DNA from: Escherichia coli phage vB_EcoS_Ace
DNA length: 64,000 nucleotides
Sequence record: MT833283.1
Direction: 5' to 3' (one strand)
The translations under genes were made by a program, and so were the position numbers. Of the stretch, positions 30,750 to 43,728 are shown piece by piece. Every line of letters begins with the position of its first letter. Position 1 is the first letter of the stretch. Below the pieces are notes generated by a model. The model did no database searches and was not told the DNA's origin. It was given only the letters and a program-made list of their open reading frames with translations.

Positions 30750-30830
30750 TGGTAGGGATGGAGGGACTCGAACCCACACCCGAAGACTAGAACCTAAATC
30801 TAGCGCGTCTGCCAATTTCGCCACATCCCC
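30750..30830 (-). tRNA. tRNA-Leu (UAG) with short UUCG-type variable hairpin
   Basis: anticodon arm CTAGA-TTTAGGT-TCTAG; A73; 81 nt. Confidence 0.5.
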
Positions 30831-32721: not shown

Positions 32722-32799
32722 TGGAAGCGGGTGTAGGAATCGAACCTACCTCTTTCTAGCTTATGAGACTAGCGATCTCTACCAAAGATCTAACCCGCA
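32722..32799 (-). tRNA. tRNA-Met (CAU), possibly initiator-like
   Basis: anticodon loop CTCATAA; U1-U72 mismatch at top of acceptor stem. Confidence 0.55.
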
Positions 32800-33775: not shown

Positions 33776-33850
33776 TGGCGGTACTAAGGGTAATCGAAAC
33801 CCTACCTCTCCCGTGACAGGGGAGTATCCTAACCGTTAGACTATAGTACC
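33776..33850 (-). tRNA. tRNA-Asp (GUC)
   Basis: anticodon arm CTCCC-CTGTCAC-GGGAG. Confidence 0.65.
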
Positions 33851-34371
33851 TTTAACTTTTTAAGTTCTTTAGGATTGCCTCCTAAAGAAGTGTATCTTTT
33901 ACGCAACCCATTATCTGAATAACTTAACTTTCTCCCTGCACCTGACCAGCCTAGCTCTCTTACTGTAACCTCGATTATTTCTTTAGTTATAGAGATATCT
34001 TTTGGTTTATGTGAAGAGCACTCCTGACATTTTTCAGCTTTTAAAGAAATAGCTTTACCACAATCCTTACAACAATTATCATGGTTTAGTTTACTAAATC
34101 CTTTATCTTTTAAAGTCTTTTCTAGATGCTGCTCTTTTGTGAGCACTTGTAAGTTATTAAGACCCCAATAAGTAATGTCTGTGTTAATATGGTCAACTTC
34201 TAGTTCAGAGTCTAGACTTGGTAATTTCTTAAATGCACATGCTAAAATCCTATGTACACCAGTATTTCTCTGTTGACCATTTTTATGGAGACGTATAGAT
34301 AAGTATCCGTAATTACTGGTTATTGGGGTTAGTATTTTGTTTGATTTGATACTAAATACTAACCCATCCAA
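33841..34371 (-). CDS. HNH homing endonuclease (176 aa)
   Basis: HNH motif (VHRILACAF...EVDHIN...N...H); within tRNA cluster, as for T5 F-Tfl endonucleases as recalled. Confidence 0.65.
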   Translation of the reverse strand: MDGLVFSIKSNKILTPITSNYGYLSIRLHKNGQQRNTGVHRILACAFKKLPSLDSELEVDHINTDITYWGLNNLQVLTKEQHLEKTLKDKGFSKLNHDNCCKDCGKAISLKAEKCQECSSHKPKDISITKEIIEVTVRELGWSGAGRKLSYSDNGLRKRYTSLGGNPKELKKLKVL

Positions 34372-34611: not shown

Positions 34612-34714
34612 ATCTATTTCCTCAGTTGTTAATGAAAAATGGTATCTGTGACTGAATTCGATATCAGCAATGATAGCTGGTTGGCTACCGGTTTACTTAA
34701 CTCTACACAGAATA

Positions 34715-34797
34715 TGGCGGGCCGTGTAGGATTCGAACCTACGTTGTCTTTCGACATGGATTAACAGTCCACCGCCAAACCGCTTGGCTAACGACCC
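34715..34797 (-). tRNA. class II-like tRNA with anticodon GUU (Asn)
   Basis: 3-bp D-stem and 13-nt variable hairpin (Tyr-like scaffold) but anticodon loop CTGTTAA and discriminator G. Confidence 0.45.
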
Positions 34798-34804
34798 TAA
34801 AATT

Positions 34805-34880
34805 TGGACGACCGCATGAGATTCGAACTCACATAAGGAGGTTTTGCAGGCCTCCGCCTAAGCCATTCAGCCAACGGTCG
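34805..34880 (-). tRNA. tRNA-Cys (GCA)
   Basis: anticodon loop CTGCAAA. Confidence 0.55.
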
Positions 34881-35337: not shown

Positions 35338-35668
35338 CTACATTTTTCAGAAATTTGATGCCTTTCTTACACTTCTTATACCACCACGTCTTAGAGTTTT
35401 GTCGATTATGAACGCTTGAGATCTTCGCCTCATTAAAGTGCTTCAAAAGCATATAATCAGCCCCTAATTGCTCAAGTGGAATGTGATCTCCACTAGAATC
35501 ATAAACATAAGGCCGTTGATTAGCTCTGTAGTGATATACCTTATTAATCCGGCGTTTAAGCAAAGGACTAGTACAGTATATAAAGAAGTTTTTAGGATGC
35601 ATCAGCATCTCCTTCAAAATTGGTGCACCCCGTTGGTAACGATCCAACCTCTCAAGCTCTTCAGGCAA
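35330..35668 (-). CDS. hypothetical protein (112 aa)
   Basis: ORF in track. Confidence 0.45.
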   Translation of the reverse strand: MPEELERLDRYQRGAPILKEMLMHPKNFFIYCTSPLLKRRINKVYHYRANQRPYVYDSSGDHIPLEQLGADYMLLKHFNEAKISSVHNRQNSKTWWYKKCKKGIKFLKNVVA

Positions 35669-35786
35669 GCGCTAATCCATCTCAGCTAAAGGTGCAAATA
35701 TTGGCAAACCTACTAGGACTCGAACCTAGACCGTACGGTTTTGGAGACCGACATGCTGTCCAGTAACACTCTAGGAATGCAGAAAT

Positions 35787-35861
35787 TGGTATTCTCACAC
35801 GGATTCGAACCGAGATTTCTGGAGTGAAGTTCCAGTGACCTAACCATTAGTCGATGAGAAC
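35787..35861 (-). tRNA. tRNA-Glu (UUC)
   Basis: anticodon arm CTGGA-ACTTCAC-TCCAG; one T-stem mismatch. Confidence 0.5.
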
Positions 35862-36377
35862 ATTATATTCTTTTGCTTTCTCTAATTTTAGAAAAGACTT
35901 TAATTCTTCTAAGTTAATTATATTAAACCATTCACCTTCTAGTGCAAAAGGTTTAAGAAACTTATGTATTTTTGATTCTACCGCACGTCTATCGGAGTAG
36001 AATTGATAGTGCTCCAGAGTAAAATCTCTGTAAGGACTATATGTTTGATATGACCTCAGTCTTTCATGGACATTTACTGTCATACCTATTTTGTAACAAT
36101 TAGGCCATGCTTTATTGCCAATAACATATACCATACCTTCATACACAGGTAATTTATGCGCTTGTTTATACTGAATAAGATTTAAAGCAGAAATTCTATC
36201 ATACTGCATTATTCTTTTAGTATTCTTCTTTTCAGTACAAGTACCTTTTATCTCATTATAGATTTCTCGATATTTAGCAAGTAAATCTACATCAATAACA
36301 AAAGGTATAGTAGGAGAGATAATATCTCTTTCCTCCATAGCGCTAATTACTATTTTTGGTATATCTGGTATTGCCAT
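35847..36377 (-). CDS. T5orf172-domain protein (GIY-YIG-like), putative homing endonuclease
   Basis: EGMVYVIGN...YKIGMT...GEWF motifs; paralog of 32059..32700. Confidence 0.6.
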   Translation of the reverse strand: MAIPDIPKIVISAMEERDIISPTIPFVIDVDLLAKYREIYNEIKGTCTEKKNTKRIMQYDRISALNLIQYKQAHKLPVYEGMVYVIGNKAWPNCYKIGMTVNVHERLRSYQTYSPYRDFTLEHYQFYSDRRAVESKIHKFLKPFALEGEWFNIINLEELKSFLKLEKAKEYNVLID

Positions 36378-36398: not shown

Positions 36399-36486
36399 GG
36401 TGGGCGTTAATGGAGTCGAACCACTCGAGTCGCAATGACCAGGGATTTACAATCCCCTCCGCTACCACTTACGGAATAAACGCCCA
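36399..36486 (-). tRNA. tRNA-Tyr (GUA), class II
   Basis: long variable arm; anticodon arm GGGGA-TTGTAAA-TCCCT; A73. Confidence 0.6.
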
Positions 36487-37341: not shown

Positions 37342-37418
37342 TGGTAGGGGTGGTGGGATTCGAACCCACAAAACCTGAATTTTAAGTCCAGTACCTATGC
37401 CAATTCGATTACACCCCC
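37342..37418 (-). tRNA. tRNA-Leu (UAA)-like with class I architecture
   Basis: anticodon arm CTGGA-CTTAAAA-TTCAG; A73; only 4-nt variable loop; D-arm atypical. Confidence 0.4.
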
Positions 37419-38052: not shown

Positions 38053-38146
38053 TGGAGGAAGATGCCAGATTCGAACTGGCACACCGTGTTTCCACAGCTA
38101 CTGGCTGTTTAGCAAACAGCTCCCTTACCATTAGGGTTAATCTTCC
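38053..38146 (-). tRNA. tRNA-Ser (GCU), class II
   Basis: anticodon arm GCTGT-TTGCTAA-ACAGC; long variable arm; acceptor GGAAGAT/ATCTTCC. Confidence 0.65.
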
Positions 38147-42374: not shown

Positions 42375-43247
42375 ATTGATTCCTTTTGTTAGGTATTTTT
42401 AAGAACTCTCGAAAAAGCTCTTAAAGATACCCGGCGGTAGGTAGGGTCAGCCCCCTCAGATTAAGCTCTGCAGCCCTTCCGTCAGACAATATCCTCCAGT
42501 TTAAGTCAGGGTGACTTTGTGGTTATGTTCTCCGTATGTGAAGAACTCGGTTAGGCTTAGGTCATGACTCCCAGCCTACTGCTGCCACTCAACAGGAATT
42601 ATCGCGAATTACCTGTACTATTGGGCACCATTAGTGACATCTCTCATGCCAGCATTTCCCACTCTCATATTCACGCGGTCTGGTAGAATCACACCTCCGA
42701 TTTTCGATGCGAAGCTGGATGCCTAGTCTCTATGTTAAACGGGGCACACACTAGGCAGTGATCCCGAGTTCCGAGTTTGGTTGAGGCCGTCAGGTTTCCT
42801 CGTGGTTTAGCTGTTTCGATTCTAACCTAATACTGATCAGGCGGCGTACCTCCTGAACCGTCATAGTATGTACTCCAGCAGCGAATGCTTATCCGGTATA
42901 AGCCCGAGTTATCCGATTCTTTCCGACCGCAGGATTCGAACCTGCATCTTCCACCAGTTACGGTTTAATATTACCGTTTATACTAGGACGGCAGTGTTAT
43001 CACATAAGTCAGTTCGACACCCCACTAACATAAACTAGAGAAGAGTTTACGAGATTTCGGGACAGCTCCCGTGTTTTCCGCAGATTTTCAGTTCCCTATC
43101 AATAGCAATAAGCGTTAGCTCGTAGCCTCTCTCAGAGTACTTACTAGTCTCCAACTCACCGACTCTATTCAGTGGAATAGCTATCCTAGTAGGAATCACT
43201 AAACTCACTCAGCGTAATCGGCTCGCTGTTCTCTACTTTATGAATTT

Positions 43248-43284: not shown

Positions 43285-43728
43285 TTAATTAAATTCGCCA
43301 GCAACCTGAGCAGCAATGCCACCGTCGTAACGACCAGGAAACTCTTCCTTAATCGCTTTCATCAGCATACCCTTTGTAATCCCAGGATTCAGCTTAACTA
43401 ATTCTGCGAAGTATTTGCGAATCTCAGTAGGAGATAACTGAGGCGGCAGATACTGCTGTAGCCATTTGTTCAGTATATACTCATACTGAGCAGACTGCAA
43501 GCTATAATTATCGAGGTCTTGACCGTGAAGTTTAGCTTTCGTATGATTAATGCTTTTCAGTTGAGCTTTTAGATAAGATACAAACTGTTCAGAAGTTATG
43601 AAGTCTTTATCAATACGCTGAAGATCTCCGATTATGGTCTGGTAGCTTTTAGCTACTTCTTTATCAGAACCATCAACCTTAGATTCCTGCAAAACTCTAC
43701 GCAAAACAGATAGAATATTCTCTTCCAT
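43285..43728 (-). CDS. GatB/YqeY-domain protein (147 aa)
   Basis: C-terminal GMLMKAIKEEFPGRYDGGIAAQVAGEF resembles YqeY signature. Confidence 0.5.
   Translation of the reverse strand: MEENILSVLRRVLQESKVDGSDKEVAKSYQTIIGDLQRIDKDFITSEQFVSYLKAQLKSINHTKAKLHGQDLDNYSLQSAQYEYILNKWLQQYLPPQLSPTEIRKYFAELVKLNPGITKGMLMKAIKEEFPGRYDGGIAAQVAGEFN

What the first reader, a model, noticed from the sequence alone, without database searches (positions are those of the whole stretch)
34715..34797. Class II (long variable arm, 3-bp D-stem) tRNA carrying an Asn anticodon
The fold has the architecture of tRNA-Tyr (3-bp D-stem GCC/GGC, 13-nt variable hairpin) but the anticodon loop is CTGTTAA (GUU, Asn) and the discriminator is G, whereas the separate tRNA-Tyr (GUA) at 36399-36486 has A73. 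Bacterial tRNA-Asn is normally class I, so this looks like a Tyr-type scaffold re-assigned to Asn, or a mis-fold on my part.
Basis: seen in the sequence. Interest (0 to 1): 0.45.

Follow-up and report, generated by a model that had tools for sequence, protein, structure and literature searches.

The report
Phage asparagine tRNA with extra arm
A T5-like phage carries a real asparagine tRNA gene with an extra hairpin arm that normally occurs only in leucine, serine and tyrosine tRNAs; the same odd design turns up in many unrelated phages but hardly at all in bacterial genomes, and I found no description of it in the literature I could search.

Summary
Window 34715-34797 (- strand) is an 83-nt tRNA gene with encoded CCA, anticodon GUU, discriminator G73 and a 13-nt variable region, GUC-GAAA-GAC-AAC. 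ARAGORN calls it tRNA-Asn and Rfam scores it 59 bits. One detail differs: the D-stem here can form 4 bp (A13-U22), while relatives have 3 bp plus G13.A22.

It is not a mis-fold. Homologues of 83-87 nt occur in T5-like, T4-like, Marfa-like, phAPEC8-like and phiKZ-like phages. All four variable-arm pairs covary. A pattern scan found 112 such loci in IMG/VR and 15 in 185,579 reference genomes, several inside phage-like tRNA arrays.

The arm has tRNA-Tyr geometry: 3-4 bp and 3-4 unpaired 3' bases. It is unlike tRNA-Ser or tRNA-Leu arms. The rest of the molecule is no closer to Tyr than to class I Asn or Lys tRNAs. G73 occurs in 87 of 91 sequences and U1-A72 in 55 of 91; both are Asn marks.

Best reading: a working Asn tRNA charged by host AsnRS. 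Descent from tRNA-Tyr is unproven. Phage T5 itself has an ordinary class I tRNA-Asn at the same locus. A defence-evasion role for the arm is untested. This is a new variant of a known kind, of moderate interest.

The parts
34715..34797 (-). Complete tRNA-Asn(GUU) gene, 83 nt including the encoded 3' CCA (34715-34717) and discriminator G73 (34718)
   Evidence: ARAGORN; Rfam RF00005 59 bits; sequence; parsed segments
34791..34797 (-). Acceptor stem 5' strand GGGUCGU, pairing with ACGGCCC at 34719-34725 (G1-C72, G2-C71, one U4.G69 wobble)
   Evidence: all 7 pairs show compensatory changes among homologues
34774..34788 (-). D arm GCCA-AGCGGUU-UGGC: a 4-bp stem in this copy (A13-U22), with a loop carrying A14, G15, C16 and G18G19
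   Evidence: relatives have GCUG...AAGC, i.e. 3 bp plus G13.A22
34756..34772 (-). Anticodon arm GUGGA-CUGUUAA-UCCAU. The anticodon GUU lies at 34763-34765. U36-A-A-U-C-C41 matches the sequence reported at the AriB cleavage site of E. coli tRNA-Asn
   Evidence: site sequence from PMC12409363
34743..34755 (-). Long variable arm, 13 nt: stem GUC/GAC (34753-34755 with 34746-34748), GNRA tetraloop GAAA (34749-34752), and three unpaired bases AAC (34743-34745) ending in C48
   Evidence: 4 of 4 arm pairs covary; hairpins far exceed shuffled expectation; geometry compared with Tyr, Ser and Leu
34726..34742 (-). T arm GUAGG-UUCGAAU-CCUAC

Best explanation
This is a genuine, conserved tRNA-Asn(GUU) gene in the tRNA array of a T5-like phage. 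ARAGORN finds 29 tRNA genes in the array and Rfam adds two weaker ones. The gene is built on a class II-type frame: its variable region is a covarying 3-4 bp hairpin capped by a GNRA tetraloop and followed by 3-4 unpaired bases, which is the geometry of bacterial and phage tRNA-Tyr.

Shown here: the gene, its fold, covariation in every helix including the extra arm, near-invariance of GUU and G73, and a wide, phage-biased distribution.

Inferred: the host asparaginyl-tRNA synthetase charges it with asparagine, because the two elements that define Asn identity in E. coli (the anticodon and G73) are intact. G73 protects it from TyrRS and LeuRS. The arm is too short and wrongly oriented for SerRS. 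The tRNA then reads AAC and AAU during infection, supplementing or replacing host tRNA-Asn.

More speculative: the arm, together with C16 in the D-loop, helps the phage tRNA escape host nucleases that attack tRNA-Asn, such as PARIS AriB. AriB is modelled to bind tRNA from C40-A41 to U16-U17, across the face where a long variable arm emerges.
For: Gene and fold.

Conservation: 534 INPHARED records cover at least 80% of the gene, 207 of them at 99% identity or more.

Spread across phage groups: homologues of 83-87 nt with GUU and G73 occur in Straboviridae (X20, KpV477), Marfavirus, Phapecoctavirus, Demerecviridae (S114, PM135) and a phiKZ-like Pseudomonas phage.

Covariation: all 4 variable-arm pairs and 18 of 24 pairs overall show compensatory changes; 0 of 500 shuffles reach the observed score.

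Hairpin statistics: 43 of 81 distinct variable regions have a stem of at least 3 bp, a 4-nt loop and at most 1 unpaired 5' base, against 5.3 +/- 2.2 in shuffles.

Phage bias: 112 IMG/VR loci against 15 in the 185,579-genome set. ARAGORN calls a long-arm tRNA-Asn in 10 of those 15, and 6 of the 10 lie in arrays of 10-21 tRNAs.

Identity marks: G73 in 87 of 91 unique sequences, the loop CUGUUAA in 90 of 91, and U1-A72 in 55 of 91. In E. coli, Asn identity is the anticodon plus G73 and can be transplanted into tRNA-Lys; G73 is an antideterminant against TyrRS and LeuRS; U1-A72 is the GatCAB determinant (PMC9976931).

Arm geometry: like Tyr, unlike Ser and Leu.

Tolerance of arm changes: the same phage has tRNA-Leu with only a 5-nt or 9-nt variable region, so arm length varies where the synthetase does not read it (PMC9976931).

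Biological context: host tRNA-Asn(GUU) is an AriB target, and T5's own class I tRNA-Asn helps rescue PARIS toxicity (PMC12409363).
Against: No aminoacylation, expression or tRNA-seq data exist for this tRNA type.

The PARIS rescue experiments used T5's unrelated class I allele.

AsnRS is a class II synthetase. By analogy with AspRS, such enzymes approach tRNA from the variable-loop side (my own knowledge, not tested here). A long arm could therefore reduce charging rather than be neutral.

This copy has G1-C72, G2-C71, C11-G24, G73 and an extra arm, which are all partial tRNA-Ser features. Some serylation cannot be excluded from sequence alone.

The anticodon stem keeps the host-like UAAUC|C AriB site, so any nuclease evasion would have to come from the arm or from C16. 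Neither has been tested.
Confidence: 0.75

Rival explanations
1. One reading: the gene descends from a class II tRNA-Tyr. An A36-to-U anticodon change and an A73-to-G discriminator change switched its identity to Asn, and the Tyr scaffold was retained.
For: GUA to GUU is a single substitution, and A73 to G73 a second. The variable-arm geometry (3-4 bp, 3-4 unpaired 3' bases) matches phage tRNA-Tyr and not Ser or Leu. Relatives carry the class II core marks G9 and G13.A22. The D-arm of the phiKZ-like copy, CCCGAGCGGUAGCAGGG, resembles what I recall of the bacterial tRNA-Tyr D-arm; I did not compare them here.
Against: The masked-body similarity to Tyr (top-5 mean 0.70-0.73) is no higher than to class I Asn (0.73-0.74) or Lys (0.72-0.74). 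The nearest full-length non-Asn neighbours are Lys tRNAs. U1-A72 occurs in 55 of 91 long-arm Asn tRNAs but in 1 of 71 Tyr tRNAs. The phage's own tRNA-Tyr is not notably similar. Similar arms occur in other isotypes. tRNA sequences are too short to resolve such deep ancestry.
Confidence: 0.2
2. The tRNA is mis-charged by seryl-tRNA synthetase, or has dual Asn/Ser identity. SerRS reads a long variable arm plus G73 and ignores the anticodon, so some AAC/AAU codons would be read as Ser.
For: This copy has G73, G1-C72, G2-C71, C11-G24 and an extra arm. Reviews state that a long arm plus G73 suggests serine identity (PMC5389517; PMC9976931).
Against: The arm is 13 nt with a 3-bp stem and 3 unpaired 3' bases. 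The three tRNA-Ser genes of the same phage have 19-23-nt arms. Across phages, tRNA-Ser has 5-7 bp stems in 105 of 136 cases and at most 1 unpaired 3' base in 105 of 136. Arm length and orientation are what SerRS reads (PMC9976931). From memory, E. coli tRNA-Tyr needed nucleotides inserted into its arm to become a Ser acceptor (Himeno 1990; I could not read the paper). The near-invariant GUU and G73 are the AsnRS identity set.
Confidence: 0.05
3. The RNA works mainly as a decoy or competitive inhibitor of a host tRNA-targeting nuclease, or another tRNA-binding factor, rather than as a translation substrate.
For: The PARIS authors raise the possibility that over-expressed viral tRNAs inhibit AriB by competition (PMC12409363). 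This tRNA keeps the host-like UAAUCC site.
Against: Everything translation needs is conserved and covaries: the 7/5 acceptor/T branch, the T-loop, G18G19, the encoded CCA, and the identity elements. A decoy would not need G73, and would not need U1-A72 in the lineages that have it.
Confidence: 0.08
4. The gene is a decaying pseudogene, or the call is a software artefact.
For: Phage tRNA arrays do contain broken copies. The annotated tRNA-Asn of phage Bas34 (SelmaRatti) is a chimera with a broken acceptor stem.
Against: There are no mismatches in any stem of this copy. It scores 59 bits. It is identical in about 200 genomes, and more distant homologues show compensatory changes.
Confidence: 0.02

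Closest known systems
Canonical bacterial and phage class I tRNA-Asn(GUU), for example the phage T5 gene T5t17 (NC_005859 33952-34029)
   Same: The anticodon GUU, G73 and the encoded CCA are the same. It occupies the same position in the T5-type tRNA array, after tRNA-Cys, and the downstream flank that T5 annotates as 'rna3' is conserved. It presumably serves the same decoding role.
   Different: T5's gene is 78 nt with a 5-nt variable loop and an unrelated sequence, so the locus holds a replaced allele. The window gene has a 13-nt hairpin arm. Class I Asn tRNAs mostly have A9 and C13, whereas the long-arm relatives mostly have G9 and G13.
Bacterial class II tRNA-Tyr(GUA)
   Same: The long variable arm has a 3-4 bp stem and about 3 unpaired 3' bases. 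G34-U35 is shared. Most relatives have a 3-bp D-stem with a 13.22 mismatch.
   Different: Tyr tRNAs have A73 in 68 of 68 cases with a scored arm hairpin and A36 in the anticodon; here they are G73 and U36. There is no preferential sequence similarity to Tyr. U1-A72, common in long-arm Asn tRNAs, is nearly absent from Tyr.
Long-arm tRNAs with anticodons outside Leu, Ser and Tyr: nematode nev-tRNAs and bacterial allo-tRNAs (PMC5389517; Hamashima 2016, cited there)
   Same: A long variable arm sits on a tRNA whose anticodon is not Leu, Ser or Tyr.
   Different: Those tRNAs are thought to keep Ser, Leu or Ala identity and so to mistranslate or suppress. Allo-tRNAs have 8/4 or 9/3 acceptor/T branches. 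This tRNA has the standard 7/5 branch and carries the identity set that matches its own anticodon, so no recoding is implied.
[quoted passage not shown]
   Same: It is a phage-encoded copy of a host tRNA that AriB cleaves, in the same phage family and the same tRNA array.
   Different: The T5 alleles escape through substitutions at or near the 40|41 cleavage site and at U16. This allele keeps UAAUC|C, and differs by the long arm and C16. Its resistance has not been tested.

Membership tests
tRNA (Rfam RF00005) | Cloverleaf sequence and structure scoring above the family's gathering threshold | tested here: met
   59.0 bits against a gathering score of 29, with full-length model match 1-71
tRNA (Rfam RF00005) | Helices maintained by compensatory substitutions in homologues | tested here: met
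   99% of cells paired; 18 of 24 pairs have changes on both sides; 0 of 500 shuffles reach the score. The alignment was fitted to the model, which favours the structure
Bacterial tRNA-Asn isoacceptor | Anticodon G34-U35-U36 in a 7-nt loop with U33 and A37 | tested here: met
   The loop is CUGUUAA, as in 90 of 91 long-arm homologues
Bacterial tRNA-Asn isoacceptor | Discriminator G73, the second AsnRS identity element in E. coli (PMC9976931) | tested here: met
   G at 34718; G73 in 87 of 91 homologues
Bacterial tRNA-Asn isoacceptor | U1-A72 first pair (typical of bacterial tRNA-Asn; the determinant for GatCAB transamidation) | tested here: not met
   This copy has G1-C72. U1-A72 is present in 55 of 91 long-arm Asn tRNAs, including the Pseudomonas phage copy. 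From my own knowledge, enterobacterial hosts use AsnRS directly and do not need this pair.
Bacterial tRNA-Asn isoacceptor | Class I architecture with a 4-5-nt variable loop | tested here: not met
   The variable region is a 13-nt hairpin
Bacterial tRNA-Asn isoacceptor | Aminoacylation with asparagine by AsnRS | not testable with these tools
   Needs a biochemical charging assay or charged-tRNA sequencing
Bacterial class II tRNA-Tyr | Long variable arm with a short (about 3 bp) stem and about 3 unpaired 3' bases | tested here: met
   GUC-GAAA-GAC-AAC. Phage Tyr tRNAs have a 3-bp stem in 42 of 68 cases and 3 unpaired 3' bases in 39 of 68
Bacterial class II tRNA-Tyr | 3-bp D-stem with an unpaired 13.22 | tested here: inconclusive
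   This copy has A13-U22, which allows 4 bp. Relatives have G13.A22
Bacterial class II tRNA-Tyr | Discriminator A73 and anticodon GUA (tyrosine identity: A73 and U35, PMC9976931) | tested here: not met
   G73 and GUU here. All 68 phage Tyr tRNAs with a scored arm hairpin have A73
Bacterial class II tRNA-Tyr | Closer in sequence to Tyr tRNAs than to other isotypes | tested here: not met
   Masked-body similarity: Tyr 0.70-0.73, class I Asn 0.73-0.74, Lys 0.72-0.74
Bacterial tRNA-Ser | Long variable arm with a stem of at least 5 bp and at most 1 unpaired 3' base (the length and orientation SerRS reads) | tested here: not met
   3-bp stem and 3 unpaired 3' bases. Phage Ser tRNAs have 5-7 bp in 105 of 136 cases and at most 1 unpaired 3' base in 105 of 136. 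The window's own Ser arms are 19-23 nt
Bacterial tRNA-Ser | G73, G1-C72, G2-C71 and C11-G24 | tested here: met
   All four are present in this copy. They are not sufficient without the Ser-type arm.

The most novel reading that the evidence does not exclude
Phages maintain a distinct class II-type tRNA-Asn lineage that cells essentially lack, along with rarer class II-type Thr, Cys, Trp, Glu, Met and Lys tRNAs. The extra arm would be a counter-defence adaptation. It projects from the face between C40-A41 and U16-U17, where the PARIS AriB dimer is modelled to bind, and so shields a host-identical anticodon stem from nucleases that cut the anticodon stem, while AsnRS still charges the tRNA. The two alternating alleles at the T5 locus, class I with a mutated cleavage site and class II with the site intact, would be two solutions to the same defence.
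Probability: 0.2. Interest if true: 0.75.

Novelty: new variant of a known kind. Interest (0 to 1): 0.5.

Why it matters
Textbooks limit long variable arms in bacteria to Leu, Ser, Tyr and Sec tRNAs, and treat the arm as part of Ser and Tyr recognition. A widespread, covarying, phage-borne tRNA-Asn with such an arm matters in three ways.

First, it would show, once charging is confirmed, that AsnRS, EF-Tu and the ribosome tolerate a class II frame on an Asn tRNA.

Second, it offers natural tRNAs for testing how SerRS and TyrRS reject arm-bearing non-cognate tRNAs. That question is relevant to designing orthogonal tRNAs.

Third, host tRNA-Asn is a target of anti-phage nucleases such as PARIS AriB and colicin E5. 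The arm is therefore a candidate mechanism of nuclease evasion that does not rely on anticodon-loop or anticodon-stem substitutions.

There is also a practical point for annotation. These genes are correctly called Asn by anticodon, but isotype-specific models may flag them as inconsistent.

Tried and rejected
1. A close E. coli tRNA as source. blastn of the gene against 5,426 E. coli genomes gave only E of about 1 hits, to tRNA-Lys. There is no host-derived copy.

2. Tyr ancestry by nearest neighbour. Both the full-length and the masked-body comparisons were non-discriminating.

3. Published tRNAscan-SE isotype scores as a proxy. The Sf14 paper reports that its Asn-GTT scores highest as Lys, but Sf14's gene is a 77-nt class I tRNA, so the result does not apply here.

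4. The PARIS paper's Bas34 result as evidence about the long-arm allele. Bas34 is SelmaRatti, and its 'tRNA-Asn' is a broken chimera, so it is uninformative on resistance.

5. Reading Himeno 1990 (PMC332736) on the Tyr-to-Ser conversion. The paper is not held.

6. Literature searches for a prior description. Six term combinations found none. The library holds open-access papers only, so the 1980s T5 tRNA sequencing papers could not be checked.

7. The first covariance-model search, at E of 1e-8 or better, pulled in all tRNAs. I repeated it at 1e-18 to obtain an Asn-only alignment.

8. The promoter and terminator scan around the gene gave nothing above the shuffled expectation. The one terminator-like hit inside the gene is the T arm read on the opposite strand.

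Full report
WHAT IS THERE

The window is a T5-like phage of the Demerecviridae. A 2.6-kb stretch around the finding is about 95% identical to Salmonella phages rokbiter, SE19 and SE24 and to Escherichia phages of the BASEL collection.

ARAGORN finds 29 tRNA genes, all on the minus strand between 28.0 and 41.9 kb. Rfam finds 28 above its gathering score, including two weaker ones that ARAGORN does not call.

The gene in question lies at 34715-34797 on the minus strand. It starts 7 nt after tRNA-Cys (34805-34880). Upstream of tRNA-Cys and downstream of the gene lie small ORFs and homing-endonuclease-like genes.

Read 5' to 3', the tRNA is GGGUCGU UA GCCA AGCGGUU UGGC G GUGGA CUGUUAA UCCAU GUC-GAAA-GAC-AAC GUAGG UUCGAAU CCUAC ACGGCCC G CCA.

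ARAGORN calls it tRNA-Asn(GTT). Rfam's tRNA model scores it 59 bits and treats 10 nt of the variable region as an insertion. RNAfold returns the cloverleaf plus a variable hairpin as both the minimum-energy and the centroid structure.

The one exception is that A13 and U22 can pair here, giving a 4-bp D-stem.

IS IT REAL, AND IS THE ARM REAL?

The gene is identical or nearly identical in about 270 deposited phage genomes. In 534 records a match covers at least 80% of the gene.

Homologues at 77-88% identity occur in unrelated phage groups:
- T4-like Straboviridae: Serratia phage X20 and Klebsiella phage KpV477
- Marfavirus
- Phapecoctavirus (Escherichia phage nepoznato)
- Other Demerecviridae: Salmonella phage S114 and Proteus phage PM135

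A phiKZ-like Pseudomonas phage, PA1C, carries a more distant 87-nt version of the same design.

All keep GUU, G73 and a variable hairpin. The hairpin sequence differs between them in compensatory fashion: GUC/GAC, GUUC/GAAC, GUCA/UGAC, AUCC/GGAU and GGC/GCC, mostly closed by a GNRA tetraloop.

I built a covariance model from eight of these. It recovered 46 copies, 22 of them distinct, at E of 1e-18 or better. On that alignment:
- 99% of cells form standard pairs.
- All four variable-arm pairs show changes on both sides.
- No shuffle out of 500 reaches the observed covariation score.
- Sliding the partners by 1-3 columns drops pairing to 33-44%.

The alignment was fitted to the model, which favours the structure. 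An independent control that does not use the model agrees. Among 81 distinct variable regions, 43 have a stem of at least 3 bp with a 4-nt loop and at most one unpaired 5' base. Shuffled sequences give 5.3 +/- 2.2, with a maximum of 14.

HOW WIDESPREAD IS IT?

I searched for GGACTGTTAATCC, then 15-25 nt, then GGTTCRAWHCC. Only an Asn anticodon arm followed by a long variable region can satisfy this pattern.

- In IMG/VR it hits 112 loci. Most lie in tRNA arrays, with a median of 11 tRNAs per locus.
- In one genome for each of 185,579 bacterial and archaeal species it hits 15 loci.

Of those 15, ARAGORN calls a long-arm tRNA-Asn in 10. Six of the 10 sit in arrays of 10-21 tRNAs within 8 kb, which looks phage-like.

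In total I obtained 91 distinct long-arm tRNA-Asn sequences with variable regions of 11-24 nt.

Among T5-like phages, the long-arm allele appears in roughly 280 records at 90% identity or more. T5's class I allele appears in 139.

WHAT KIND OF ARM IS IT?

I compared arms from the same phage contigs.

| tRNA group | Stem length | Unpaired 3' bases | Loop | Discriminator |
|---|---|---|---|---|
| Long-arm Asn | 3-4 bp in 75 of 91 | 3-4 in 68 of 91 | 4 nt in 64 of 91 | G73 in 87 of 91 |
| Tyr | 3-4 bp in 56 of 68 | 3 in 39 of 68 | 3-4 nt in 54 of 68 | A73 in 68 of 68 |
| Ser | 5-7 bp in 105 of 136 | at most 1 in 105 of 136 | 4 nt in 85 of 136 | G73 in 94 of 136 |
| Leu | 3-5 bp in 96 of 111 | 1-2 in 93 of 111 | 4 nt in 72 of 111 | A73 in 111 of 111 |

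The arm is therefore Tyr-like in geometry.

Long-arm Asn tRNAs also tend to carry the class II core marks. G9 occurs in 47 of 91 and G13 in 51 of 91. Class I Asn tRNAs have A9 in 107 of 126 and C13 in 78 of 126. The copy in this window has shifted back toward the class I form, with A9 and A13-U22.

IS IT A CONVERTED tRNA-Tyr?

The evidence does not show that.

- With the anticodon loop and variable arm masked, the body is as similar to class I Asn (0.73-0.74) and Lys (0.72-0.74) as to Tyr (0.70-0.73).
- The nearest full-length non-Asn neighbours are Lys tRNAs.
- Of the long-arm Asn tRNAs, 55 of 91 have U1-A72, the hallmark of bacterial tRNA-Asn and the determinant for GatCAB (PMC9976931). Tyr tRNAs have it in 1 of 71. 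The Pseudomonas phage copy has U1-A72. This fits a host that, from my own knowledge, makes Asn-tRNA by transamidation.
- Arms of the same geometry also appear, rarely, in phage Thr, Cys, Trp, Glu, Met and Lys tRNAs. They are enriched in arrays that carry a long-arm Asn.
- This same phage has tRNA-Leu(UAA) with a 5-nt variable loop and tRNA-Leu(UAG) with a 9-nt one.

In phage tRNA arrays, then, the variable region appears free to grow or shrink where the cognate synthetase does not read it. E. coli LeuRS does not need the arm (PMC9976931).

HOW IT MOST LIKELY WORKS

In E. coli, Asn identity is set by the three anticodon bases and G73, and it can be transplanted into tRNA-Lys (PMC9976931). Both elements are near-invariant in the long-arm tRNAs.

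G73 is an antideterminant against TyrRS and LeuRS (PMC9976931 table). The short arm with three unpaired 3' bases is unlike any tRNA-Ser arm in the same phages.

I therefore infer, with a confidence of about 0.75, that host AsnRS charges the tRNA and that it decodes AAC and AAU during infection.

One caveat is that AsnRS is a class II enzyme expected to approach from the variable-loop side, so the arm may not be neutral. That rests on my own knowledge, and no biochemical data exist for this tRNA.

WHY PHAGES MIGHT KEEP IT

[quoted passage not shown] T5's own tRNA-Asn, together with its tRNA-Lys and tRNA-Thr, rescues PARIS toxicity (PMC12409363).

T5's tRNA-Asn is a different gene: a 78-nt class I tRNA with an altered anticodon stem. 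It sits at the same locus with conserved flanks. The locus therefore alternates between two alleles.

The long-arm allele keeps UAAUCC but has C16. U16-to-C impaired AriB cleavage of tRNA-Lys. Its arm emerges between C40-A41 and U16-U17, the two points the AriB dimer is modelled to contact.

A steric-shield role is therefore plausible but untested. I give it about 0.2.

The T4-like copies in X20 and KpV477 sit directly after tRNA-Lys(UUU), another AriB target.

COMPARISON WITH WHAT IS KNOWN, AND NOVELTY

The gene is routinely annotated as tRNA-Asn in GenBank, so the gene itself is known.

I found no paper in the searchable open-access corpus that describes a long variable arm on a phage or bacterial tRNA-Asn. 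Six searches gave nothing. A review of non-canonical tRNAs does not mention phages at all, and the allo-tRNA paper describes phage tRNAs only with 8/4 acceptor branches, for Ser and His. Older T5 tRNA papers could not be checked.

The closest known cases of arm-bearing tRNAs with other anticodons are nev-tRNAs and allo-tRNAs. Those are thought to keep Ser, Leu or Ala identity and so to recode. This tRNA carries the identity set of its own anticodon.

I rate it a new variant of a known kind, with interest 0.5. It is a small but real exception to the class I / class II rule. It is widespread in phages, and it sits in a topical defence and counter-defence context.

Noticed in passing
window 37342-37418 (-) and 30750-30830 (-): tRNA-Leu(UAA) has only a 5-nt variable loop, which is class I-like, and tRNA-Leu(UAG) has a 9-nt one (UCUUCGGGU). 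Both keep A73. This is the mirror image of the Asn case: this phage's Leu tRNAs have lost the long arm. Shigella phage Sf14 also has 77-79-nt Leu tRNAs.
   Followed up: partly
L259 6598-6683 (Escherichia phage SelmaRatti = Bas34, MZ501103 about 72597-72682): The annotated 'tRNA-Asn' of Bas34 is a chimera. Its 5' part is the long-arm Asn tRNA up to the T arm; its 3' end resembles tRNA-fMet (ACCCGCU). The acceptor stem is broken and ARAGORN does not call it. This probably explains why Bas34's own tRNA-Asn did not rescue PARIS in PMC12409363.
   Followed up: yes
window 34640-34714 compared with L008 7878-7950 (T5 'rna3'): T5 has an unrelated 78-nt class I tRNA-Asn at the same locus, while the downstream flank (T5's 'putative tRNA-like RNA3') is conserved. 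This looks like a cassette-style allele replacement in a region full of homing-endonuclease genes. The class I allele is in 139 phage records and the long-arm allele in about 280.
   Followed up: partly
IMG/VR loci, e.g. L018, L036, L145; genome-set loci L122, L126: Long variable arms of the same geometry (about 3 bp, often a GNRA loop, 3-4 unpaired 3' bases) also occur on phage Thr, Cys, Trp, Glu, Met, Lys, Asp and His tRNAs. They are rare in control arrays (about 15 of 860) and enriched in arrays that carry a long-arm Asn.
   Followed up: partly
window 35624-35695 (-) and 42921-42992 (-): Two Rfam tRNA hits that ARAGORN misses. The first (33.4 bits) is a tRNA-Phe(GAA)-like gene with two non-standard anticodon-stem pairs and an odd T-loop. 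The second (29.7 bits) is a weak tRNA-like element whose 18-nt anticodon region Rfam leaves unaligned.
   Followed up: partly
L001 67-234 and L002 67-235: In the T4-like phages X20 and KpV477, the long-arm tRNA-Asn directly follows tRNA-Lys(UUU). Lys(UUU) and Asn(GUU) are both AriB targets, so this may be a linked counter-defence pair.
   Followed up: no
window 43285-43728 (-): A 147-aa ORF with a weak YqeY-like (GatB tail-type) match, 22.7 bits against Pfam's cutoff of 27. By position, beside the tRNA region, it probably corresponds to T5.081, which T5 annotates as 'tRNA amidotransferase'; I did not align the two. T5 carries that gene with a class I Asn, so it is not specific to the long-arm tRNA.
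   Followed up: partly
window 33841-34371 (-) and 35847-36377 (-): Two 176-aa ORFs lie between tRNA genes. One has a weak HNH_3 match and the other has T5orf172/MUG113 (GIY-YIG-like) domains. These are the homing-endonuclease-type genes typical of the T5 tRNA region.
   Followed up: partly
window 38053-38146 (-) and 32722-32799 (-): tRNA-Ser(GCU) has U73 rather than G73, with a 23-nt arm. The tRNA-Met at 32722-32799 has a U1.U72 mismatch at the first acceptor position and U73. These are further non-standard identity positions in this array.
   Followed up: no
L260 75-149 (E. coli O19:H7 chromosome NZ_CP061764 about 2841716-2841790): A chromosomal, non-housekeeping class I tRNA-Asn(GUU) with G1-C72 and A73. 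Its 3' end (GGUUCGAAUCC..CACGGCCC) resembles that of the phage gene. It could be prophage-borne; I did not check.
   Followed up: no
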